NCBI RefSeq assembly: GCF_045037415.1
Contig: NZ_CP173438.1
Strand: one strand, 5' to 3'
DNA: 64,000 nucleotides
Origin: Escherichia coli
GTDB taxonomy: Bacteria; Pseudomonadota; Gammaproteobacteria; Enterobacterales; Enterobacteriaceae
Below the pieces are notes generated by a model. That model saw nothing but the letters and a program-made list of their open reading frames with translations. It did not search any database and was not told where the DNA came from. A program made the translations under genes and the position numbers. Of the stretch, positions 11,195 to 19,932 are shown one piece after another (positions within the stretch are counted from its first letter, which is position 1; each line of letters starts with the position of its first letter).

Positions 11195-12577
11195 TCAACC
11201 TGCCACACTCCCCCACACCAGTTGCCCTTTATGGAACGTCGCCGTTCTCGGCGAAATACGCGCCACCGCCTCGGCGGAACAGGAGGCGTCCACCAGCACA
11301 AAACTGGCATCATCCTGCGCTTTGGGCCACACGCGCTCGCCTTTTTCGTTGAGCGGCAATACATCGCCAGTGGCTAAAAACAGAGAGCGGGAGAGGTTCT
11401 GTTCGTTAGGACGAATATAGAGCTGCGCGTACAGATTGGCTTTTTCCAGCATGTCGCCCAGGCCGTAAGGCGACCAGTGGTCGATAACGCTGTCGGTGCC
11501 GGTCATCACTTTTACGCCTTTGTCGTGCAGCTGTTTGAGCGGCATATGCAGCGTGCCAATCGGCACCGTCGAAGCGATCGAAATTCGCTGCGCCGCCATC
11601 CGGTGCGCCAGTTCATCTACCTGTTGTTCGTTGAGCGTTGCCAGCGCAAAGGCGTGGCTGATGGTCAGCTTGCCCTTCAGCTGTGGCGTTTTCTCCACTG
11701 TTTCAACCATATAATTGATGGCTGCCACGCCTGCCGGCGTGGTTTCGTGCAGGTGAATATCGACGCCTTTGTCATAGTCCAGCGCAATCTGGAACATGGT
11801 GTCGAGGGATTTTTCCATCGCGCCATCAACACTGGTCGGGTCCAGCCCGCCGACGTAATGCGCCCCCGCCTGCATCGCTTCGCGCATTAAGGATTCCGAT
11901 TTCGACAGCAGCAAACCGTGCTGCGGGAAGGCGACGATCTCACACTCGAAGCCCGTCTGACGTCGCGCCAGCACCGCCTGCAAATTTTGCAGATTTTTCA
12001 GGCCGGAAACCGGTTCGATATTGCAGTGGCTGCGGGCAATAGTGGTGCCTTTCGACTGCAATAAATCGATCAGTTTTTCCGCCCGTTCCTGCGTGTACGG
12101 TTGCAGTTCCGGCAGCATTTTCTGCTCGAGTTTGATCATGTCCTGGATAGTGGTGCCTGCCGGACGATTGAGCGAGCGCCACGGCCCGCCGTAGAAGGTT
12201 TTGTCGAGATGAATATGCATATCGCGGGTGGTGGGCAGCATCAGCTTACCGCCAGCGTCATAGTGCGGCAGCGTGGCGTCCGGATGCTGCTTGTTCTCGC
12301 GCAGGGCAACAATTTTACCGTCCTGAATCTCCACGGTCTGGCGCGCCGTGCGGGTCTGTACCGCCACGCCATTTTCGTAGTCAAAACCGGTTTCCAGCAG
12401 CACGTTATCGAGATAGTAATGCGGGTCAGTGATTTTCATGGTGTTGTTCGCTTCGCAGTTTAGGGTGCCAGCTACCCCCGCATGGGCGAGCGGCACTGAG
12501 GTACCAAACAGCGCGGCGGCGGTGACCATCTTACCGCTCTGGCTCAGAAATTCACGGCGGCTATTGTTTTCTTTCAT
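11195..12577 (-). CDS. yahJ: Amidohydrolase-superfamily deaminase/hydrolase with twin-arginine (Tat) signal peptide
   Basis: 460 aa ORF; N-terminus SRREFLSQS followed by hydrophobic stretch and AHA cleavage site; metal-binding HIHLDK motif. Confidence 0.85.
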   Translation of the reverse strand: MKENNSRREFLSQSGKMVTAAALFGTSVPLAHAGVAGTLNCEANNTMKITDPHYYLDNVLLETGFDYENGVAVQTRTARQTVEIQDGKIVALRENKQHPDATLPHYDAGGKLMLPTTRDMHIHLDKTFYGGPWRSLNRPAGTTIQDMIKLEQKMLPELQPYTQERAEKLIDLLQSKGTTIARSHCNIEPVSGLKNLQNLQAVLARRQTGFECEIVAFPQHGLLLSKSESLMREAMQAGAHYVGGLDPTSVDGAMEKSLDTMFQIALDYDKGVDIHLHETTPAGVAAINYMVETVEKTPQLKGKLTISHAFALATLNEQQVDELAHRMAAQRISIASTVPIGTLHMPLKQLHDKGVKVMTGTDSVIDHWSPYGLGDMLEKANLYAQLYIRPNEQNLSRSLFLATGDVLPLNEKGERVWPKAQDDASFVLVDASCSAEAVARISPRTATFHKGQLVWGSVAG

Positions 12578-12586
12578 CTTACGTCC

Positions 12587-13537
12587 TTAGGTTTTAATAA
12601 TATGGGTGCCCGTTTCGCCGCGTAGCGCCGCAGGCAGGCATTCCGGCGTGGTGATAATCACTTCTTTGCCGTCCTGTTCCAGGAACGTCAGGCTGGCGAT
12701 GATTTTTGGCAACATGCTGCCAGGTGGGAAATGCCCTTCCTGCATATAGCGGGTCATGGTGGCAATATCTACGCGATCGAGCGCCTGTTGCTGCGGCTTG
12801 CCAAAGTGGATACAGACTTTTTCGACGCCGGTGGTGATCACCAGAATGTCGGCGTGAATTTCGCGGGCCAGTAGCGCGGTGGAGAGATCTTTGTCGATAA
12901 CCGCGTCCACGCTTTGGTAATCTCCCGCTTCGGTGCGCACCACAGGAATTCCACCGCCGCCCGCGCCAATCACCACAAAGCCTTGTTGGATCAGCGCCTT
13001 AATGGCAGGTGCTTCGACAATACGTTTCGGTTCCGGCGAGGCGACCACGCGGCGATAGCCCCGTCCGGCATCTTCAACAAAACGCCAGTCAGGGTTTGCC
13101 TTTTGTAGTTCGTCACGCTGGCTTTCACTAAAGAATGCGCCGATGGGCTTGGTGGGATGGGCAAAACCCGGATCGTTTTTATCCACTTCCACCTGAGTCA
13201 CCACAGTGACGGCTTTTTTCTCGCCGTGACGCGCCAGTCGGTTGTTCAGCGCCTGCTGGATCAGATAGCCAATGCCACCTTGCGTATCCGCCACACAGTT
13301 CGCCAGCGGCGTTAAGGGCAGCCCTTCGCGCTCGTGGGCAATCTCCGCACGGCGTAAATCCAGCCCGACCTGCGGCCCGTTGCCGTGGGTCAGCACAATG
13401 TCGTAATCGGAAGCCAGCATTTCCAGCACCGTATCGGCCACGGCTTTCACCGCCTCCGCCTGATGCTCAATCGACTGGCTGGCGTTATCTTTGATAATGC
13501 TGTTGCCACCAATGGCAACGACCACAAGTTCTTTCAT
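12587..13537 (-). CDS. yahI: Carbamate kinase-like protein (amino acid kinase family)
   Basis: 316 aa ORF; N-terminal VVVAIGGNS motif typical of carbamate kinases; synteny. Confidence 0.85.
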   Translation of the reverse strand: MKELVVVAIGGNSIIKDNASQSIEHQAEAVKAVADTVLEMLASDYDIVLTHGNGPQVGLDLRRAEIAHEREGLPLTPLANCVADTQGGIGYLIQQALNNRLARHGEKKAVTVVTQVEVDKNDPGFAHPTKPIGAFFSESQRDELQKANPDWRFVEDAGRGYRRVVASPEPKRIVEAPAIKALIQQGFVVIGAGGGGIPVVRTEAGDYQSVDAVIDKDLSTALLAREIHADILVITTGVEKVCIHFGKPQQQALDRVDIATMTRYMQEGHFPPGSMLPKIIASLTFLEQDGKEVIITTPECLPAALRGETGTHIIKT

Positions 13538-13577
13538 GTTGTTATGTCCGCGACAGAGGGTGATGGGGTTATGACCA

Positions 13578-13680
13578 ACGCCAGACTGCCTGATGCGCTA
13601 CGCTTATCAGGCCTACAATTCTCGTGCCACTCGTAGGCCGGATAAGGCGTTCACGCCGCATCCGGCAGAGACAACGCGTA
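13578..13680. repeat. REP/BIME element pair between yahI and yahG
   Basis: gcctgatgcgctacgcttatcaggcctac and gtaggccggataaggcgttcacgccgcatccggc REP palindromes. Confidence 0.85.
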
Positions 13681-13689
13681 CTTTGCAGG

Positions 13690-15108
13690 TCAGACGCCGT
13701 AACGTTCGCACCAGCCAAGAATGGCTTTCTCGAAGCAGGCGAAGGGTGGATGCACAATGCCCGCGCCAATCATGCCGACGCCCGCATCTTTATGGGCAAT
13801 GGCGGTGTTGATCACCGGCAGAATGCCGCTGCTACCCACGCGGGTGATGTCGATTGCCGACGGCACGCCCATAAAACCGAGCAGCGGAATGGTGACGTTG
13901 GGGTTTTCGCCAAGGGTGATTTCACGCATCTGACGGGAGAAATCGATAGCCTCTTCCACCGTGCCGCCCACCAGCGCAACGATCGCGGGCGCGGTCGCCA
14001 TCGCAAATCCGCCGATACCGTAGGTTTCGGTGATGGCGCTGTCGCCGATATCCAGCCCCGAATCTTCCGGCTTATAACCGGCAAACATCGGGCCGATGAC
14101 CTGCTGCGCCGGGCCGGTAAACCATTGCCCCGGCAGGCCGCTGACCCGCAGGCCGAACTCGACGCCGTTACGCGCCATGGTGGTCACCACGGTGCTGTAT
14201 TCAATGCCGTGCGCCGCATCCATCGCCGCTTTACACATCGCCATCCACGTTGGGCCGGAGAAGTAATCGCTGCTGGCGACAAACTCAAACACTTCGCGCT
14301 GTTGCTCAACGGAATAACCCGCCTGAATAATCCCCGGCGTCAGCGCCTGAATCAGCAGCGTCGTCCCGGCGTTATTGCGGTTATGGCATTCATCGCCCAT
14401 ATGCAGCGCCTGCGCCAGCATTAAGCGCAGATCGATCTCGCCGATAATTTTCATCGCGTCACGCAGCATTGGCCCCTGCACATCGCGCATCCAGTTGAGG
14501 CGGTCGATCACGCTCTGGTCGTTAGCGCCCATACGCAAAATCTTCGCCATCTGCTCGCTCATGTTGGTATAAGCGATGTTGCCATAGGTTTTGTTTTTCA
14601 CGATGTGCATAAACATCGAGGCCGAGGTGACGCCCGCCATCGATCCCACACAGTCGTGCTCGTGGCACGGCGAGAAGGTGATCTCCCCGGAAGCCGCCAG
14701 CTCAGCCGCCTCGTCGAGATCTTTCGCCAGTCCTTCAAACACCAGCGCTCCGGTGACCGCGCCTTTCATCGCGCCGCACATTTTTTCCCAGGTGACCGGC
14801 GGCCCGGCGTGAAGAATGGTTTTCGCCGTCATGCCCGGCACCACGTTAATCGCCTGATCAAAACCAATCAGCACTGGATGCGACTGGATAATGCGCTCCA
14901 GCGCCTGCTGGTTAGCGGCGGTGATTTTGTCCGCCAGCGGCGAATCGGCAATGTTGTCCAGTGCCTGCACCACCTGCATATTGCCCTGCCCCGGCGGCGT
15001 CCAGTCGAGTTGGGTCACTTCTACATGCTGCTTTTTCAGATCATCGCTAAACATGGCGATACCGACGTTAATAACGTTCAACGGTTGGCTAAACAGTGAC
15101 TGGCTCAT
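13690..15108 (-). CDS. yahG: DUF1116-family protein (paralog of YlbE/AllG)
   Basis: 472 aa ORF; length and position match YahG; start overlaps yahF stop (ATGA), indicating translational coupling. Confidence 0.8.
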   Translation of the reverse strand: MSQSLFSQPLNVINVGIAMFSDDLKKQHVEVTQLDWTPPGQGNMQVVQALDNIADSPLADKITAANQQALERIIQSHPVLIGFDQAINVVPGMTAKTILHAGPPVTWEKMCGAMKGAVTGALVFEGLAKDLDEAAELAASGEITFSPCHEHDCVGSMAGVTSASMFMHIVKNKTYGNIAYTNMSEQMAKILRMGANDQSVIDRLNWMRDVQGPMLRDAMKIIGEIDLRLMLAQALHMGDECHNRNNAGTTLLIQALTPGIIQAGYSVEQQREVFEFVASSDYFSGPTWMAMCKAAMDAAHGIEYSTVVTTMARNGVEFGLRVSGLPGQWFTGPAQQVIGPMFAGYKPEDSGLDIGDSAITETYGIGGFAMATAPAIVALVGGTVEEAIDFSRQMREITLGENPNVTIPLLGFMGVPSAIDITRVGSSGILPVINTAIAHKDAGVGMIGAGIVHPPFACFEKAILGWCERYGV

Positions 15109-16655
15109 CAGGCTTCCTCCCCTTTGCAGATAAATTCACGCGCCAGCAATCCGGTATTGGTGCTGCTGCTCGCCAGAATCACTCCGGCATCAAGCAGCAT
15201 CTGGCTTTGTTGTTCTAATGATGGCGTATCGAGATCGGTGCCCAGCACATAGGCGAGAATGATCAACTCGCGTCCTTCGGCAGCGGCGATCGCTTTCGCT
15301 TCTTTGATCGCCTCGATGGTGGAACCGACCGGATCTTCATGCGATCCAAATCCGAGCACAAAATCCATCACGATCACCGCCACTTCTGGATCGCGCGCTT
15401 CTTCGATCAAGCGGCTGATACGGTTGGTCGGGTCAATCATTGGATGCGGCTTGCCGTTGGTGAAGTCATCATCGCCAAAGTCGAGGAAGGTGTGTTTGAT
15501 GCTGCGGTTGATATCTTGCAGGCGGAATTCAGGATCGGGCTGGATATTGCTGTAGACATCGCCATGTTTTTCCATCACCGCGAACAGGGTTTCGTCACAC
15601 AGCGTACCGCCGCAGAACAGACCACGAATGTATTTCTGCTGCGGTTGCAGACGCGCGCGCACATCCGCAATCAACGGCTGGTCAAGCGTATGCAGATCGA
15701 GATGTTCTTGTTTCACGCCGGAGAGCATCACCGCTTTCAATGCCGCCTCTTTGCTGCCGCGAGCAAACTGTAGCCCCTGCTCATCCACTGGCGTTTCGCC
15801 ACGACCGAGGAAGCAGGCCACCACTGGCTTGCGGCAGGCGCGTGCGCGTTCCAGCACTTTGCGGGCCACCGCAGGCGCAGGCGGTTTGGAGATAAGCACA
15901 ATGATTTCAGTTTGCGGATCGTTTTCCAGCATGCTGATGGCATCGAGCATCATCAGTCCGCCGATTTTCTCGCTCAGGTCGCGCCCGCCGGTGCCGATCA
16001 GTTGTGAAACGCCGCCACCAAATTCATGGATACGGACGCTCAATTCCTGGCTGCCGGTGCCAGATGCGCCAACAATACCGATGTTGCCGCGACGCACGGC
16101 GTTACCAAAGCAGAGCGCCGCGCCGTTGATAATCGCCGTGCCGCAGTCTGGCCCCATCATCAGCAGCCCTTTTTCATGGGCCAACTGTTTGAGCGCCAGT
16201 TCATCTTCAACTGAGACATTATCGGAAAACAGCATCACGTTGAGGTCATTTTGCAGCGCCTGACGCGCTTCGCGAGCGGCAAACAGACCGTTGACCGAAA
16301 TCACTGCCAGGTTACTTTCCGGGATATGCTTTTTGGCGCTGGCAATAGTGCCGTAACGCGCCTCGTGCGAGCCGCTTTGCGCTTTGGTGTTGAACAGTTC
16401 TTCAATCTCCGCCAGCAACTGCTCGTTGTCCACACCCGATTTACCATTGATGACAATCATCAGGTCGCCGTTTTTCGCCTGCTCCAGCTCCGGCGTCAGC
16501 AGTCCTAAATTCTTCAACACGCCTTTGTTCATTTCGGTCGCCATCGCCACAAATGCCTGCTCGACGCCGTCGAGTTTATTTGCACGCGTGGAGATAGACA
16601 TCAGCGAGACAGAATCAAAATAGGTATTCGGTTTAATGACTATTTTAACTGACAT
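15108..16655 (-). CDS. yahF: FdrA-like CoA-binding protein (succinyl-CoA synthetase alpha-like fold; paralog of FdrA/AllF)
   Basis: 515 aa ORF; glycine-rich CoA-binding regions; synteny. Confidence 0.8.
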   Translation of the reverse strand: MSVKIVIKPNTYFDSVSLMSISTRANKLDGVEQAFVAMATEMNKGVLKNLGLLTPELEQAKNGDLMIVINGKSGVDNEQLLAEIEELFNTKAQSGSHEARYGTIASAKKHIPESNLAVISVNGLFAAREARQALQNDLNVMLFSDNVSVEDELALKQLAHEKGLLMMGPDCGTAIINGAALCFGNAVRRGNIGIVGASGTGSQELSVRIHEFGGGVSQLIGTGGRDLSEKIGGLMMLDAISMLENDPQTEIIVLISKPPAPAVARKVLERARACRKPVVACFLGRGETPVDEQGLQFARGSKEAALKAVMLSGVKQEHLDLHTLDQPLIADVRARLQPQQKYIRGLFCGGTLCDETLFAVMEKHGDVYSNIQPDPEFRLQDINRSIKHTFLDFGDDDFTNGKPHPMIDPTNRISRLIEEARDPEVAVIVMDFVLGFGSHEDPVGSTIEAIKEAKAIAAAEGRELIILAYVLGTDLDTPSLEQQSQMLLDAGVILASSSTNTGLLAREFICKGEEA

Positions 16656-17508
16656 AATTCCCTCCGTAGGTTTGACTCAGCGCACAACCATCGGCCATGC
16701 CATACAGCATGTCGCAGCCGGAACTGGAGCCAATATGTTTAATTTTTTCTATTGCCTGAGTTGCGTTCCCAGGGATGTCATAAATAATGTTGTGAATAAA
16801 ACGATGAATATTTTCCCGGCAGCGTTGTTGTAATGCGGCTTCCAGCGTGATGGCACTTAATAACGTGGTATTATTTCTGCCGCGTTGCAGGCCGAGATAA
16901 AATTCCTCTTTGTATTTTTCCGCCGGATGTCCGGAAATAAATAAAATAAGTACCAGTCCGGTCAGATAATCATCGGCTGATGGCGTAAGGCCAATCCCTA
17001 ACCCCATCATACTGGCGACTGCTGAGGCGATATTTTGTTTATCGTTTACGGCCTGAATAACTGCCCGTCGTTTAATATGTAGTTCTTTATTTAACGCCTG
17101 ATAAAACGGATTATCGCCGCGATAATTAAACAGGGTTTCATTTTCCCCCAGGTGCTGATGAATAATGTCGTACCACTGTTGCCAGGCGATAAGGTGAAAA
17201 TTCACAGCGGTCATTTGCAAGGTTGGGGACAGCCAACGCTGGCAATGACTCATCTCTATATGATGATGTTGACCAATCGTAATGCCTTGATCGTCAAACT
17301 GAACCTTATCATCATGCCGGAACAGACCATTAAAGTGAGTGAGTGCCAACCGACAACTGTTAGGCGCATTGTCGTACTCTTCACAAAGCAGCGTCAGCAA
17401 CTGCTGGCGAGCCGGGAGTGCGATATTTACCGCTCTGGCAAAGACCTGTTCAACCTGTCCTTGCCCCCGCTGCGCCAGAAAATCAGCATCCGCAGTTAGC
17501 GCCCACAC
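16645..17508 (-). CDS. yahE: DUF2877-family protein (paralog of YlbF/AllH)
   Basis: 287 aa ORF overlapping yahF start by 11 bp; synteny. Confidence 0.75.
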   Translation of the reverse strand: MWALTADADFLAQRGQGQVEQVFARAVNIALPARQQLLTLLCEEYDNAPNSCRLALTHFNGLFRHDDKVQFDDQGITIGQHHHIEMSHCQRWLSPTLQMTAVNFHLIAWQQWYDIIHQHLGENETLFNYRGDNPFYQALNKELHIKRRAVIQAVNDKQNIASAVASMMGLGIGLTPSADDYLTGLVLILFISGHPAEKYKEEFYLGLQRGRNNTTLLSAITLEAALQQRCRENIHRFIHNIIYDIPGNATQAIEKIKHIGSSSGCDMLYGMADGCALSQTYGGNYVS

Positions 17509-17547
17509 ACACCGTTTTTCTGGTGTGTTGATAACAAGCCTCCCGGT

Positions 17548-18153
17548 TTATGCACCTGCGGCGATCAGCAACTGCGCAATCTCTTCAAAGCCCCGTTCCC
17601 GCGCCAGTTTCAGCGGCGTTTTGCCATATTTATCGGTCAGATGCGGGCTGGCACCGTGTTCCAGCAATAACTGGACAATCGCCTGCTGTTTAATCCCACC
17701 ATCATTAAGCACAATCGCTTCCAGCAACGGTGTCCAGCCAACATGGTTAGTCTGGTTAACGTTAATCTCCGTATTTGCCAAAAGCTCTTTTACAATACTT
17801 AAATGGCCTTTTTCACAGGCAGGCGTCAGGCCGACACCGCCAAAACGGGTTACGCAATTAAGATCGGGTTTAGCCGGTAAAATAATTCGTAGTAGCGTTA
17901 AATCATCGTTCAGACAGCTAATTAAAAAAGGATTTAAACAGGTATGATCTTGCTTATTAATATCCGCTCCGGCATCAATTAATGCCTGAACGCAAGCATA
18001 TTGCTGATATAAACTTGCCAGCGTAATTGCCGTTTTCCCCTGACGATCGCAGGTATTAATATCGACACCCAGCGCAAGGCAGGTTTTTACTTTATCGATA
18101 TCACCCTGTTGCGCAGCCAATAAATAGTCGGCAGGTAGATTTTTTATAGTCAT
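17548..18153 (-). CDS. yahD: Ankyrin-repeat protein
   Basis: 201 aa ORF with repeated ankyrin-like motifs (G-TPL--A---GH---V--LL--GA). Confidence 0.85.
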   Translation of the reverse strand: MTIKNLPADYLLAAQQGDIDKVKTCLALGVDINTCDRQGKTAITLASLYQQYACVQALIDAGADINKQDHTCLNPFLISCLNDDLTLLRIILPAKPDLNCVTRFGGVGLTPACEKGHLSIVKELLANTEINVNQTNHVGWTPLLEAIVLNDGGIKQQAIVQLLLEHGASPHLTDKYGKTPLKLARERGFEEIAQLLIAAGA

Positions 18154-18410: not shown

Positions 18411-18908
18411 ATGAACGGACTCACGGCAACGGGTGTCACCGTCGGTATTTGTGCAGGGCTTTGGCAGTTAGTGTCTTCACATGTCGGGCTCTCTCAGGGA
18501 TGGGAATTATTAGGAACCATTGGCTTCGTCGCCTTTTGCAGTTTTTATGCCGCAGGCGGCGGTAAATCGGGGTTTATCAGAAGTCTGGCGGTTAATTATT
18601 CCGGGATGGTGTGGGCATTTTTCGCCGCGCTGGCTGCCGGTTGGCTGGCCTCGGTGAGTGGGATTTCTGGGTTCTGGGCGAGCGTGATTACTACCGTGCC
18701 TTTCTCAGCGGTAGTGGTCTGGCAAGGACGTTTCGGTTTATTGTCTTTTATTCCCGGAGGCTTTCTCGGCATGACGCTATTTTTTGCCAGCGGGATGAAC
18801 TGGACGGTGACATTACTGGGTTTTCTGGCGGGTAACTGCGTGGGGATAATTTCAGAATATGGAGGACAAAAATTAAGCGAAGCGACGACTAAACGCGACG
18901 GGTATTAA
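18411..18908 (+). CDS. yahC: Inner-membrane protein of unknown function
   Basis: 165 aa ORF, four predicted hydrophobic helices; divergent from yahD. Confidence 0.8.
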   Translation: MNGLTATGVTVGICAGLWQLVSSHVGLSQGWELLGTIGFVAFCSFYAAGGGKSGFIRSLAVNYSGMVWAFFAALAAGWLASVSGISGFWASVITTVPFSAVVVWQGRFGLLSFIPGGFLGMTLFFASGMNWTVTLLGFLAGNCVGIISEYGGQKLSEATTKRDGY

Positions 18909-18999: not shown

Positions 19000-19932
19000 A
19001 TGAACTCAATTTTTACCGAAGAGAATCTGTTGGCATTTACTACCGCTGCACGTTTTGGCAGCTTCAGTAAAGCCGCAGAAGAGTTGGGTTTAACCACTTC
19101 CGCCATTAGCTACACCATCAAGCGAATGGAAACAGGGCTGGATGTGGTGCTGTTCACTCGCAGTACCCGCAGCATTGAGTTAACGGAGTCCGGGCGTTAT
19201 TTTTTCCGCAAAGCTACCGACCTGCTGAATGATTTTCACGCCATTAAACGCAGTATCGATACTATTTCGCAGGGCATAGAAGCGCGTGTGCGCATTTGTA
19301 TTAATCAGCTGCTTTATACGCCCAAACACACCGCACGCTTATTACAGGTGCTGAAAAAGCAGTTTCCTACCTGCCAGATTACCGTCACCACCGAAGTGTA
19401 TAACGGCGTCTGGGATGCGATTATTAATAATCAGGCAAATATCGCTATCGGCGCACCCGACACGCTGCTGGACGGTGGCGGCATTGATTACACGGAGATT
19501 GGCGCGATTCGCTGGGCTTTTGCCATCGCTCCGGATCATCCATTAGCCTTTGTGCCGGAGCCGATCGCCGAAAGCCAGCTGCGTCTCTACCCTAATATCA
19601 TGGTGGAGGACACCGCGCATACGATTAATAAAAAAGTAGGCTGGTTGCTGCATGGGCAGGAATCGATTCTGGTGCCCGATTTCAACACCAAATGTCAGTG
19701 CCAGATTTTAGGTGAAGGAATTGGTTTTTTGCCGGATTACATGGTCCGTGAGGCGATGGCGCAATCCTTGCTGGTTACCCGACAAATCCATAACCCGCGC
19801 CAGGATTCACGCATGTTACTCGCAACCCAGCACTCTGCCACCGGTCAGGTGACGCAGTGGATTAAAAAACAATTTGCGCCAAATGGCATATTAACGGGGA
19901 TCTATCAGGATTTACTGCATCGGGAGAGTTAA
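19000..19932 (+). CDS. yahB: LysR-family transcriptional regulator
   Basis: 310 aa ORF; N-terminal LysR HTH (FSKAAEELGLTTSAISYTIKRME). Confidence 0.85.
   Translation: MNSIFTEENLLAFTTAARFGSFSKAAEELGLTTSAISYTIKRMETGLDVVLFTRSTRSIELTESGRYFFRKATDLLNDFHAIKRSIDTISQGIEARVRICINQLLYTPKHTARLLQVLKKQFPTCQITVTTEVYNGVWDAIINNQANIAIGAPDTLLDGGGIDYTEIGAIRWAFAIAPDHPLAFVPEPIAESQLRLYPNIMVEDTAHTINKKVGWLLHGQESILVPDFNTKCQCQILGEGIGFLPDYMVREAMAQSLLVTRQIHNPRQDSRMLLATQHSATGQVTQWIKKQFAPNGILTGIYQDLLHRES

What the first reader, a model, noticed from the sequence alone, without database searches (positions are those of the whole stretch)
11195..12577. Amidohydrolase YahJ carries a twin-arginine export signal while its operon partners look cytoplasmic
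The N-terminus MKENNSRREFLSQSGKMVTAAALFGTSVPLAHA has a consensus Tat motif (S-R-R-x-F-L), a hydrophobic core and an AxA cleavage site. This implies a folded, metal-loaded hydrolase exported to the periplasm. A periplasmic deamination step followed by cytoplasmic carbamoyl transfer and carbamate kinase would be an unusual split pathway.
Basis: seen in the sequence. Interest (0 to 1): 0.5.

Follow-up and report, generated by a model that had tools for sequence, protein, structure and literature searches.

The report
YahJ: Tat-exported periplasmic amidohydrolase
E. coli YahJ does carry a conserved twin-arginine export signal, which has been known for about 20 years, and the odd "periplasmic enzyme in a cytoplasmic operon" layout is explained because related bacteria keep a transporter gene in the same operon that E. 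coli has lost.

Summary
Window 11195-12577 (-) is E. coli yahJ. Its N-terminus, MKENNSRREFLSQSGKMVTAAALFGTSVPLAHA, is a textbook Tat signal.

This is not new. YahJ is already listed as a predicted Tat substrate by TATFIND and TatP.

- R-R-x-F-[L/I] is invariant in 81 of 81 species-level orthologues, while the linker after A-x-A varies freely.
- A Priestia orthologue sits directly upstream of its own tatA-tatC pair.
- In 29 of 33 related operons that carry the carbamate-kinase module, a 516-aa transporter gene with the UraA/AzgA/SLC26 fold lies between yahG and yahI. Escherichia has only 152 bp of REP repeats there.

The split pathway is therefore the ordinary pattern of periplasmic hydrolysis, uptake and cytoplasmic catabolism. 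The cytoplasmic steps are YahEFG, a paralogue of oxamate carbamoyltransferase AllFGH, followed by carbamate kinase YahI.

The ankyrin protein YahD is YahJ's most faithful neighbour. It carries its own signal peptide in Alphaproteobacteria and Bacteroidota but not in enterobacteria, so Tat "hitchhiking" is possible but untested. The substrate remains unknown.

The parts
11195..12577 (-). yahJ CDS. It encodes a 460-aa precursor of a mononuclear-metal amidohydrolase related to AtzC and cytosine deaminase.
   Evidence: The ORF and its translation come, and the RefSeq annotation. NCBIfam NF005312 scores 716 bits, and Pfam matches Amidohydro_3 and Amidohydro_1. The closest PDB entries are AtzC-like (6nbo, 2qt3, 4cqb) and CodA.
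12479..12577 (-). Region coding for the Tat signal peptide (residues 1-33). It comprises an n-region, S-R-R-E-F-L, an h-region and A-H-A, with the predicted cleavage site between A33 and G34.
   Evidence: Sequence is. Hydrophobicity and length fall in the Tat range. Conservation is shown. The protein is listed as a Tat substrate in PMC3027627 and PMC7549933.
12545..12562 (-). Codons for S6-R7-R8-E9-F10-L11, the twin-arginine consensus. The two Arg codons are at 12554-12559.
   Evidence: Sequence is. R, R and F are invariant, and L/I is invariant, in 81 of 81 orthologues.
12584..12588 (-). AAGGA Shine-Dalgarno sequence for yahJ, overlapping the yahI stop codon (12587-12589). The yahI-yahJ spacer is 9 nt and in frame.
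12425..12478 (-). Hypervariable linker (residues 34-51) between the signal and the catalytic domain. Cytoplasmic relatives begin at about residue 50.
   Evidence: Column conservation is 0.33 here, against 0.78 for the mature domain. Alignment A1 and the NCBIfam profile both start at about residue 49.
12587..13537 (-). yahI, a carbamate kinase family protein with no export signal.
   Evidence: NCBIfam NF009007 scores 648 bits. The N-terminus and hydropathy were checked.
13538..13689 (-). The yahG-yahI spacer, occupied by two REP elements (formerly annotated 'yahH'). Related operons carry a 516-aa transporter gene at this position.
   Evidence: The spacer sequence is. The transporter is present in Serratia, Aeromonas, Citrobacter and others. 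There is no remnant of it in the window. PMC11551758 describes yahH as filled with REP sites.
13690..15108 (-). yahG, a DUF1116/AllG-family protein and paralogue of an oxamate carbamoyltransferase subunit.
   Evidence: RefSeq names it 'DUF1116' or 'YlbE family'. Orthologues match Pfam PF06545 AllG.
15108..16655 (-). yahF, an FdrA/AllF-family protein with CoA-binding and CoA-ligase domains.
   Evidence: NCBIfam NF004760 scores 493 bits, above the 433 cutoff. Orthologues match Pfam HMA_AllF_N, CoA_binding and Ligase_CoA.
16645..17508 (-). yahE, a DUF2877/AllH-family protein.
   Evidence: RefSeq annotation is. Orthologues match Pfam PF11392 AllH. The plasmid copy is named 'oxamate carbamoyltransferase subunit AllH family'.
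17548..18153 (-). yahD, a 201-aa ankyrin-repeat protein with no signal peptide in enterobacteria. It is the most constant neighbour of yahJ across phyla.
   Evidence: The ORF cannot extend upstream. YahD-YahJ two-gene operons occur in Cedecea and Erwinia. Homologues with a signal peptide lie next to Tat-YahJ in Microvirga, a soil metagenome and Bacteroidota.
19000..19932 (+). yahB, a LysR-type regulator. In relatives it is transcribed divergently from the yahD operon and is probably the operon's regulator.
   Evidence: Annotation is. It is conserved next to yahD in 39 loci.

Best explanation
YahJ is made as a 460-aa precursor. It folds and binds its single metal ion in the cytoplasm. Its N-terminal twin-arginine signal is then recognised by TatBC, the protein is moved across the inner membrane by the Tat translocase, and signal peptidase probably cleaves it after A-H-A (A33|G34). 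The product is a soluble periplasmic enzyme of about 47 kDa.

Its active site resembles that of AtzC, so it most likely removes an exocyclic amino or alkylamino group hydrolytically from a planar N-heterocycle such as a nucleobase or triazine-like compound. In the ancestral operon the product is taken up by a dedicated 7+7-TM permease of the UraA/AzgA/SLC26 fold. In the cytoplasm it feeds YahEFG, a paralogue of the AllFGH oxamate carbamoyltransferase, and the carbamate kinase YahI, which would yield carbamoyl phosphate and then ATP, NH3 and CO2.

Escherichia has lost the permease gene, so its chromosomal operon either depends on another transporter or is partly decayed.

Shown here: the signal, its conservation, the gene contexts, the transporter fold and the conserved catalytic residues. 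Inferred: actual Tat dependence in vivo, the cleavage site, the substrate, and the chemical link between YahJ's product and YahEFG.
For: 1. The signal matches the consensus and has Tat-like length and hydrophobicity.
2. The twin arginine is invariant in 81 of 81 orthologues from Alpha- and Gammaproteobacteria, next to a freely varying linker. It is also present in about 115 of 120 close cluster representatives.
3. Deeper relatives also carry Tat-type N-termini: Priestia (SRRRFI), actinobacterial-like and other sequences (SRRxLL, SRRRTFI), and Bacteroidota (SRKxFLK). Relatives of about 400-415 aa and 45% identity or less start at residue ~50.
4. In Priestia the orthologue lies immediately upstream of tatA-tatC and divergent from a Xan_ur_permease gene.
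5. Published predictors list YahJ as a Tat substrate. A yahJ deletion mutant had a mild competitive defect in an ExPEC strain (competitive index 0.70, p=0.02).
6. The transporter lies between yahG and yahI in 29 of 33 module-containing loci. It is also present, in a different gene order, in a distant locus (L011) that also has Tat-YahJ.
7. The transporter model has pLDDT 82.5 and pTM 0.80. Foldseek matches SVCT1, UraA, UapA, AZG1/2, SLC26Dg and BicA with probability 1.00.
8. The catalytic residues map onto AtzC and are invariant: H121/H123/H275/D362 are the metal ligands, H308 corresponds to the essential AtzC H249, and K126, Q219, H277 and W368 are ligand-binding residues.
9. YahF and YahI pass NCBIfam family models, and orthologues of YahE and YahG match Pfam AllH and AllG. 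AllFGH is the experimentally defined oxamate carbamoyltransferase (PMC11326118).
10. No promoter-like or terminator-like site was found on the coding strand between yahD and yahJ.
11. yahJ is retained at full length in 5035 of 5426 complete E. coli genomes.
Against: - The key reporter-fusion paper (Tullman-Ercek et al. 2007, PMID 17218314) is not held.
- The signal has no basic residue in its c-region and the early mature region is acidic, so reporter fusions could also use Sec.
- In about half of the species-level loci (40 of 80), YahJ stands alone or only next to a LysR regulator. Its link to the carbamoyl-transfer module is therefore facultative.
- The operon has no ring-opening enzyme that would connect a deaminated heterocycle to a carbamoyl donor.
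- E. coli lacks the permease, so the pathway as drawn cannot be complete in this window.
- The permease has no sequence-level match to Pfam, NCBIfam or PDB proteins.
Confidence: 0.72

Rival explanations
1. Hitchhiker variant. YahJ is exported by Tat as a pre-formed complex with the signal-less ankyrin protein YahD, so one of the 'cytoplasmic-looking' partners is in fact periplasmic. YahD would act there as a partner, stabiliser or substrate-presenting subunit.
For: - YahD is YahJ's most constant neighbour. YahB<>YahD-YahJ two-gene operons occur in Cedecea, Erwinia and some Enterobacter species. In a distant locus an Ank-TPR fusion sits in the same cluster.
- In Microvirga (two species), a soil metagenome contig and Bacteroidota, the adjacent YahD homologue has its own Sec or lipoprotein signal peptide. 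There, both proteins are extracytoplasmic.
- All 39 enterobacterial and Aeromonas YahD proteins are about 201 aa with no signal.
- E. coli already uses Tat hitchhiking, for example PaoABC (PMC4273604).
Against: - An AlphaFold2 model of a YahJ-linker-YahD fusion built on an 18-row paired alignment gave pTM 0.47 and no confident docking. The model of YahJ itself was poor, so this result is inconclusive rather than negative.
- YahD could instead be a cytoplasmic chaperone in enterobacteria.
- Most stand-alone YahJ loci have no YahD nearby.
Confidence: 0.15
2. YahJ is exported but functionally independent. It would be a self-contained periplasmic scavenging or detoxifying hydrolase, for example one that releases ammonia or an amine. 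Its position at the end of the yahDEFGI operon would not reflect a shared pathway.
For: In 40 of 80 species-level loci YahJ occurs without YahEFGI, usually next to only a LysR regulator and within heterogeneous neighbourhoods. The AllFGH-like module also occurs with other hydrolases, for example an isochorismatase-family protein in the APEC tkt1 island (PMC3349570).
Against: YahJ is associated with AllH-AllF-AllG-CK plus the same permease in two different gene orders and in very distant lineages, at 36% YahJ identity in L011. In enterobacteria the five-gene module is nested exactly between yahD and yahJ. The yahI-yahJ spacer is only 9 nt, with the Shine-Dalgarno sequence overlapping the yahI stop codon.
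Confidence: 0.15
3. YahJ is membrane-anchored rather than soluble. [quoted passage not shown]
For: There is a precedent: Gorla et al. 2009, J Bacteriol 191:6292, cited in PMC9371700. A long flexible linker follows the signal.
Against: A-x-A is present at the expected distance in 75 of 81 orthologues. There is no lipobox. The h-region is short and only weakly hydrophobic (1.63), which makes it a poor transmembrane anchor.
Confidence: 0.08
4. The signal is a relic or is not used. YahJ would work in the cytoplasm with its operon partners, either because the signal is non-functional in E. coli or because translation starts at the internal Met47.
For: Cytoplasmic relatives begin at about residue 50, and many enterobacterial orthologues have a Met at residues 46-48. 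E. coli lacks the operon's permease.
Against: The RR-x-F-[L/I] motif is conserved in 81 of 81 orthologues, including all permease-less genomes. No Shine-Dalgarno-like sequence precedes Met47. The Met is absent from many orthologues.
Confidence: 0.05

Closest known systems
Catalogued E. coli Tat substrates without redox cofactors (AmiA, AmiC, SufI, MdoD, YcbK). YahJ is itself in these catalogues.
   Same: It has an N-terminal S/T-R-R-x-F-L-type signal of about 30 residues with a mildly hydrophobic h-region and A-x-A. TATFIND and TatP both list it.
   Different: The function and substrate of YahJ are unknown. It is the only one encoded at the end of an operon whose other enzymes are cytoplasmic catabolic enzymes.
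AtzC (N-isopropylammelide isopropylaminohydrolase, PDB 2QT3/4CQB) and cytosine deaminase CodA, which are subtype III amidohydrolases
   Same: It shares the small beta-barrel plus TIM-barrel architecture and the His-x-His/His/Asp mononuclear metal site. The essential His (AtzC H249 = YahJ H308) is present. The AtzC ligand-contact residues K65, Q160, H219 and W309 correspond to YahJ K126, Q219, H277 and W368.
   Different: AtzC and CodA have no signal peptide and are cytoplasmic. YahJ has Ser363 where AtzC has N304 and CodA has D314. It has His277 where CodA has the catalytic Glu217. Identity is only about 25-35%, and the substrate is untested.
Organophosphate hydrolase (OPH/PTE) of Brevundimonas diminuta
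   Same: It is an amidohydrolase-superfamily metalloenzyme targeted by a Tat signal to the periplasmic side (Gorla et al. 2009, cited).
   Different: OPH has a binuclear metal centre, is reported to stay membrane-associated, and is not part of a carbamoyl-phosphate or ATP-yielding operon.
AllFGH oxamate carbamoyltransferase plus AllK carbamate kinase of the E. coli anaerobic allantoin pathway
   Same: YahE, YahF, YahG and YahI belong to the same families as AllH, AllF, AllG and AllK (PMC11326118 and PMC9843812). The logic is also the same: hydrolases generate a carbamoyl compound, which is converted to carbamoyl phosphate and then ATP.
   Different: All allantoin-pathway hydrolases are cytoplasmic. 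The yah system places its amidohydrolase in the periplasm and, in most genera, has its own unrelated permease. Neither paper mentions the yah genes.
B. subtilis phoD-tatAd-tatCd, where a substrate gene is followed by its dedicated translocase (cited from general knowledge)
   Same: In Priestia the yahJ orthologue is followed directly by tatA and tatC.
   Different: The cargo is different: an amidohydrolase rather than a phosphodiesterase. Dependence on the translocase has not been tested.
Tat hitchhiker complexes (PaoABC, HybOC, DmsAB)
   Same: One subunit carries the RR signal and a partner encoded in the same operon has none. This is the relationship between YahJ and YahD in enterobacteria.
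   Different: No physical YahD-YahJ complex has been shown, and the structure model was inconclusive.

Membership tests
Tat (twin-arginine) exported precursor | An N-terminal consensus motif (S/T)-R-R-x-F-L-K with an invariant arginine pair | tested here: met
   S6-R7-R8-E9-F10-L11. R, R and F are present in 81 of 81 orthologues, L/I in 81 of 81, and S(-1) in 64 of 81.
Tat (twin-arginine) exported precursor | An uncharged h-region that is less hydrophobic than in Sec signals, a long signal of about 30 aa, and an A-x-A signal-peptidase site | tested here: met
   Peak Kyte-Doolittle hydrophobicity is 1.63, against 1.40-2.44 for the Tat set and 1.92-3.08 for the Sec set. The length is 33 aa. A31-H32-A33 is present, and A-x-A occurs in 75 of 81 orthologues.
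Tat (twin-arginine) exported precursor | Export depends on TatABC and on the arginine pair in vivo | not testable with these tools
   Only predictions could be read (PMC3027627, PMC7549933). The 2007 reporter-fusion study is not held. There is indirect genomic support: tatA-tatC lies directly downstream of the Priestia orthologue.
Amidohydrolase superfamily, subtype III (AtzC/CodA-like) | A mononuclear metal site: H-x-H after strand 1, His after strand 5, Asp after strand 8, and a catalytic His after strand 6 | tested here: met
   H121, H123, H275, D362 and H308 align with AtzC H60, H62, H217, D303 and H249 and are invariant in A1.
Amidohydrolase superfamily, subtype III (AtzC/CodA-like) | A profile match to the family | tested here: met
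   NF005312 scores 716 bits (cutoff 447). Cytosine-deaminase models score far below their cutoffs. Pfam Amidohydro_3 and Amidohydro_1 match.
Amidohydrolase superfamily, subtype III (AtzC/CodA-like) | Demonstrated hydrolytic deamination or dealkylamination of a heterocycle | not testable with these tools
   No biochemical data on YahJ were found.
AllFGH-type carbamoyltransferase plus carbamate kinase module (YahE/F/G/I) | Three subunits of the AllH (DUF2877), AllF (FdrA) and AllG (DUF1116) families, encoded together with a carbamate kinase | tested here: met
   YahF matches NF004760 at 493 bits (cutoff 433). YahI matches NF009007 at 648 bits. Orthologues of YahE and YahG match Pfam AllH and AllG. 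RefSeq names agree.
AllFGH-type carbamoyltransferase plus carbamate kinase module (YahE/F/G/I) | Phosphorolysis of a carbamoyl compound to carbamoyl phosphate | not testable with these tools
   This activity has been shown only for AllFGH with oxalurate (PMC11326118). The yah genes are not mentioned in that paper.
NCS2/AzgA/SulP-type (7+7 TM, UraA-fold) transporter: the 516-aa protein of related operons | A 14-helix inverted-repeat fold with short beta-strands in TM3 and TM10 | tested here: met
   The AF2 model has pLDDT 82.5 and pTM 0.80, with strands at residues 82-85 and 304-307. Foldseek matches SVCT1, UraA, UapA, AZG1/2, SLC26Dg and BicA with probability 1.00 and TM-scores of 0.45-0.54.
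NCS2/AzgA/SulP-type (7+7 TM, UraA-fold) transporter: the 516-aa protein of related operons | A sequence-profile match to Xan_ur_permease, AzgA or SulP families | tested here: not met
   There was no Pfam, NCBIfam or PDB sequence hit, and hhalign against a Xan_ur_permease gave a probability of 0.1%. The sources' own names ('xanthine permease', 'AGZA family') are annotations, not tests.
NCS2/AzgA/SulP-type (7+7 TM, UraA-fold) transporter: the 516-aa protein of related operons | Presence in this window's operon | tested here: not met
   The yahG-yahI spacer is 152 bp of REP sequence. tblastn of the permease against the window finds nothing.
Tat hitchhiker pair (YahJ carrying YahD) | A signal-less partner encoded in the same operon whose homologues are extracytoplasmic elsewhere | tested here: met
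   Enterobacterial YahD has no signal. Homologues in Microvirga, a metagenome contig and Bacteroidota do have signals.
Tat hitchhiker pair (YahJ carrying YahD) | A stable complex forms before export | tested here: inconclusive
   The fusion AF2 model had pTM 0.47 and pLDDT 70.5, with parts of YahJ itself at low confidence.

The most novel reading that the evidence does not exclude
The Yah locus would be a three-compartment catabolic system not yet described. A Tat-exported AtzC-like hydrolase would carry a signal-less ankyrin partner (YahD) into the periplasm by hitchhiking and convert an unidentified N-heterocycle found in the gut or soil. The product would be imported by a new, sequence-orphan branch of UraA-fold transporters. 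It would then be converted by an AllFGH-like transcarbamoylase and carbamate kinase into ATP and ammonia. In Escherichia, loss of the permease, always together with gain of the small membrane protein YahC, would have rewired uptake.
Probability: 0.12. Interest if true: 0.6.

Novelty: already known. Interest (0 to 1): 0.3.

Why it matters
The Tat signal itself adds nothing new, because YahJ has been on E. coli Tat-substrate lists since 2003. The value lies in the context, since yahDEFGIJ is one of the dense uncharacterised ("y-ome") clusters of E. coli.

The comparative picture gives this cluster a concrete, testable outline: a periplasmic AtzC-like hydrolase, a dedicated UraA-fold permease, an AllFGH-like carbamoyltransferase and a carbamate kinase. 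It also explains why work on E. coli K-12 alone may have found no phenotype, because K-12 lacks the transporter. Citrobacter, Enterobacter and Serratia would be better hosts for finding the substrate.

The work also flags a possible new Tat hitchhiker, YahD. Finally, it identifies a highly conserved transporter family (65-90% identity from Firmicutes to Proteobacteria) that has no Pfam or NCBIfam model.

Tried and rejected
1. Tullman-Ercek et al. 2007 (reporter fusions of 29 E. coli Tat signals) could not be read by PMID or PMC id. From memory, I believe YahJ's signal was among those tested, but I cannot cite the result.

2. Sequence-level classification of the 516-aa membrane protein failed with NCBIfam, Pfam, PDB phmmer, a PDB profile search, and hhalign against a Xan_ur_permease. 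Only the predicted fold gave an answer.

3. AlphaFold2 on a YahJ-(GGGGS)6-YahD fusion, with an 18-row paired alignment, gave pTM 0.47. This neither supports nor excludes a complex.

4. Two 2026 preprints on metal-dependent bile salt hydrolases came up through the search term 'AtzC'. Those enzymes are binuclear and YtcJ/NfdA-like, so they are not in the YahJ family, and I dropped the lead.

5. I clustered the neighbours of stand-alone YahJ genes to look for a conserved partner. Apart from LysR regulators the neighbourhoods are heterogeneous and give no substrate clue.

6. I considered an internal start at Met47 as a source of a cytoplasmic isoform. I rejected it as the main reading because there is no Shine-Dalgarno sequence and the Met is not conserved outside Enterobacteriaceae.

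7. The promoter and terminator scan found nothing on the coding strand, so it does not subdivide the operon. This is weak evidence.
Full report
**1. What is there.**

The window is the prp-yah-bet region of an E. coli chromosome. The ORF at 11195-12577 lies on the minus strand and is yahJ (460 aa). An AAGGA Shine-Dalgarno sequence lies 6 nt upstream of the ATG and overlaps the stop codon of yahI. The yahI-yahJ spacer is only 9 nt.

On the same strand, upstream, the genes are:
- yahD, an ankyrin protein
- yahE (DUF2877/AllH family)
- yahF (FdrA/AllF family)
- yahG (DUF1116/AllG family)
- a 152-bp spacer made of two REP elements, formerly annotated 'yahH'
- yahI, a carbamate kinase family protein

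No promoter-like or terminator-like site was found on the coding strand between yahD and yahJ.

**2. Is the signal real?**

The peptide has S-R-R-E-F-L at residues 6-11, an h-region, and A-H-A at residues 31-33.
- Its peak hydrophobicity is 1.63. This falls within the range of 19 published E. coli Tat signals (1.40-2.44) and below all nine textbook Sec signals I compared (1.92-3.08).
- Its length of 33 residues also matches Tat signals.

A loose RR motif plus an uncharged stretch turns up by chance in 5 of 963 start/ORF combinations in this window. Only YahJ is a real gene start among them.

The decisive evidence is evolutionary.
- Among about 120 cluster representatives at 70% identity or more, nearly all keep the motif.
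- In 80 species-level loci from the genome collection plus E. coli, R-R and F(+3) are present in 81 of 81, L/I(+4) in 81 of 81, S(-1) in 64 of 81, and A-x-A in 75 of 81.
- The 18-residue linker after the cleavage site is the least conserved part of the protein. Its column conservation is 0.33, against 0.78 for the catalytic domain.

Deeper representatives show the same split.
- Relatives with N-terminal extensions carry Tat-type motifs: Priestia has SRRRFI, others have SRRALL or SRRRTFI, and Bacteroidota have an S-R-K-x-F-L-K variant.
- The relatives of about 400-415 aa and 45% identity or less start at the equivalent of residue ~50.
- The NCBIfam model of the family also starts at residue 49.

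In Priestia flexa/aryabhattai the orthologue is followed directly by tatA and tatC. This recalls phoD-tatAd-tatCd of B. subtilis, which I cite from general knowledge.

**3. Already known.**

YahJ (b0324) is marked as a TATFIND-predicted substrate in the table of PMC3027627, which is based on Dilks et al. 2003. TatP predicted it in an ExPEC strain, where deleting yahJ gave a mild competitive defect (competitive index 0.70, p=0.02; PMC7549933). The 2007 reporter-fusion survey of E. coli Tat signals could not be read.

**4. What kind of enzyme.**

YahJ matches NCBIfam NF005312 ('amidohydrolase', 716 bits) and Pfam Amidohydro_3 and Amidohydro_1. Cytosine-deaminase models score far below their cutoffs. 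The closest solved structures are AtzC-type enzymes (6nbo, E = 3e-44; 2qt3 and 4cqb, E about 5e-31), followed by cytosine deaminases.

I mapped the alignment onto the AtzC structure paper (PMC4577212):
- H121, H123, H275 and D362 correspond to the Zn ligands H60, H62, H217 and D303.
- H308 corresponds to the essential H249.
- K126, Q219, H277 and W368 correspond to the ligand-contacting K65, Q160, H219 and W309.
- S363 replaces AtzC N304 and CodA D314.

All of these residues are invariant across the 15-sequence alignment A1. The chemistry is therefore most likely hydrolytic removal of an exocyclic amine from a planar N-heterocycle. The substrate is unknown, and no biochemical data on YahJ were found in the paper library searched.

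A cofactor-loaded and probably oligomeric enzyme of this kind is a natural Tat cargo. There is a precedent in the amidohydrolase-superfamily organophosphate hydrolase of Brevundimonas diminuta (Gorla et al. 2009, cited).

**5. The 'split pathway'.**

YahE, YahF, YahG and YahI have no export signal. They belong to the families of AllH, AllF, AllG and AllK. That three-subunit oxamate carbamoyltransferase and its carbamate kinase finish anaerobic allantoin degradation (PMC11326118 and PMC9843812). Neither paper mentions the yah genes. The operon does therefore combine a periplasmic hydrolase with cytoplasmic enzymes that produce carbamoyl phosphate and ATP.

Comparative genomics removes the oddity. 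In Serratia and Aeromonas the orthologous operon is LysR<>yahD-yahE-yahF-yahG-[516-aa membrane protein]-yahI-yahJ.

Across the 80 species-level loci:
- 29 of the 33 that carry the module have this gene in the same position. The genera are Citrobacter, Yokenella, Enterobacter, Lelliottia, Leclercia, Serratia, Buttiauxella, Atlantibacter, Providencia, Zophobihabitans and Budvicia.
- Only Escherichia albertii, two Pseudocitrobacter and one Kluyvera lack it, as does E. coli.
- A very distant locus (YahJ 36% identical, with an RR signal) has the same permease, an Ank-TPR protein, AllH-AllF-AllG, a carbamate kinase and YahJ in a different gene order.

The membrane protein has no Pfam, NCBIfam or PDB sequence match. 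Its AlphaFold2 model (pLDDT 82.5, pTM 0.80) does match SVCT1, UraA, UapA, AZG1/2, SLC26Dg and BicA with probability 1.00. It is therefore a 7+7-TM elevator-type secondary transporter. Source databases call it 'xanthine permease' or 'AGZA family'.

The Priestia orthologue likewise sits next to a Xan_ur_permease. A cytoplasmic relative sits next to a Bmp-type ABC importer. The layout is thus periplasmic conversion, uptake and cytoplasmic catabolism, which is a common arrangement.

In this window the transporter gene is absent and no remnant is left. Even so, yahJ is kept at full length in 5035 of 5426 complete E. coli genomes.

**6. YahD.**

The ankyrin protein is the most faithful companion of YahJ.
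- In Cedecea, Erwinia persicina and some Enterobacter species the operon is just yahD-yahJ next to the LysR gene.
- In Microvirga (two species), a soil-metagenome contig and a Bacteroidota contig, the adjacent YahD homologue carries its own Sec or lipoprotein signal peptide.
- All 39 enterobacterial and Aeromonas YahD proteins are about 201 aa and signal-less.

This raises the possibility that enterobacterial YahD reaches the periplasm by hitchhiking on YahJ. An AlphaFold2 model of a linked YahJ-YahD construct gave pTM 0.47, and the YahJ part was only partly confident. The idea is therefore neither supported nor excluded.

**7. Limits.**

- In 40 of 80 loci YahJ occurs without the module, so the functional link is facultative.
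- The operon contains no ring-opening enzyme that would connect a deaminated heterocycle to a carbamoyl donor.
- Tat dependence, cleavage site, substrate and transport specificity are all inferred rather than shown.

**8. Verdict.**

Interest is modest for the finding as stated. It is somewhat higher for the hypotheses that follow from it: the use of hosts with the transporter intact, the possible YahD hitchhiker, and the sequence-orphan transporter family.

Noticed in passing
window 18411-18908 (+), yahC; loci L014, L015, L016, L023 compared with the 29 permease-containing loci: yahC encodes a small DUF1097 inner-membrane protein lying between yahB and yahD. It is present in every permease-less operon (E. 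coli, E. albertii, two Pseudocitrobacter and one Kluyvera) and in none of the 29 operons that keep the permease. This could reflect one shared evolutionary event or a functional replacement of the transporter.
   Followed up: partly
L094 (E. coli IncFII plasmid NZ_JBVWEU010000002.1), 3228-11661: 142 of 5426 complete E. coli genomes carry a second yah-like cluster, mostly on IncF plasmids: LysR<>ank-AllH-FdrA-YlbE-permease-carbamate kinase. In L094 it includes the permease missing from the chromosome but is cut by IS elements where yahJ would be. The two copies are complementary in content.
   Followed up: partly
L014/L015 (Pseudocitrobacter) compared with window 11195-18153: The identity pattern is mosaic. 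YahF, YahG, YahI and YahJ are 95-99% identical to the E. coli proteins, but YahD is only 71-72% identical and YahE 54-56%. This suggests recent recombination or horizontal transfer, with a breakpoint between yahE and yahF.
   Followed up: no
window 12577-12589, the yahI stop codon and yahJ start codon: yahI and yahJ are in the same reading frame, separated by 9 nt. Three database entries of 779-780 aa are read-through carbamate kinase-YahJ fusions with an internal Tat signal, and a 677-aa entry is another fusion (P0001-P0003, P0008). These are probably sequencing or stop-codon variants.
   Followed up: no
window 12437-12439 (Met47 of YahJ): A Met sits at the boundary between the linker and the catalytic domain, at about the point where signal-less relatives start. 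It recurs in many Enterobacteriaceae orthologues within an otherwise hypervariable linker. No Shine-Dalgarno sequence precedes it. It may be a relic of the ancestral start codon.
   Followed up: partly
Related loci L002, L004, L011 and L017 (the 516-aa permease): This transporter family is 65-90% identical from Firmicutes (Brevibacillus, Paenibacillus, Neobacillus) to Proteobacteria. Despite that, no Pfam or NCBIfam model covers it and no solved structure is detectable by sequence.
   Followed up: yes
Literature: APEC O1 tkt1 genomic island (PMC3349570): A third paralogous yahE/yahF/yahG plus carbamate kinase cluster exists in ExPEC/APEC. It is combined with a different permease and an isochorismatase-family hydrolase. 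The AllFGH-like module therefore appears to be reused with different upstream hydrolases.
   Followed up: no
window 11195-12577 across E. coli genomes: yahJ alleles in complete E. coli genomes range down to 90-95% nucleotide identity (708 records). Several singleton protein clusters are truncated at the C-terminus, at 371-434 aa.
   Followed up: no
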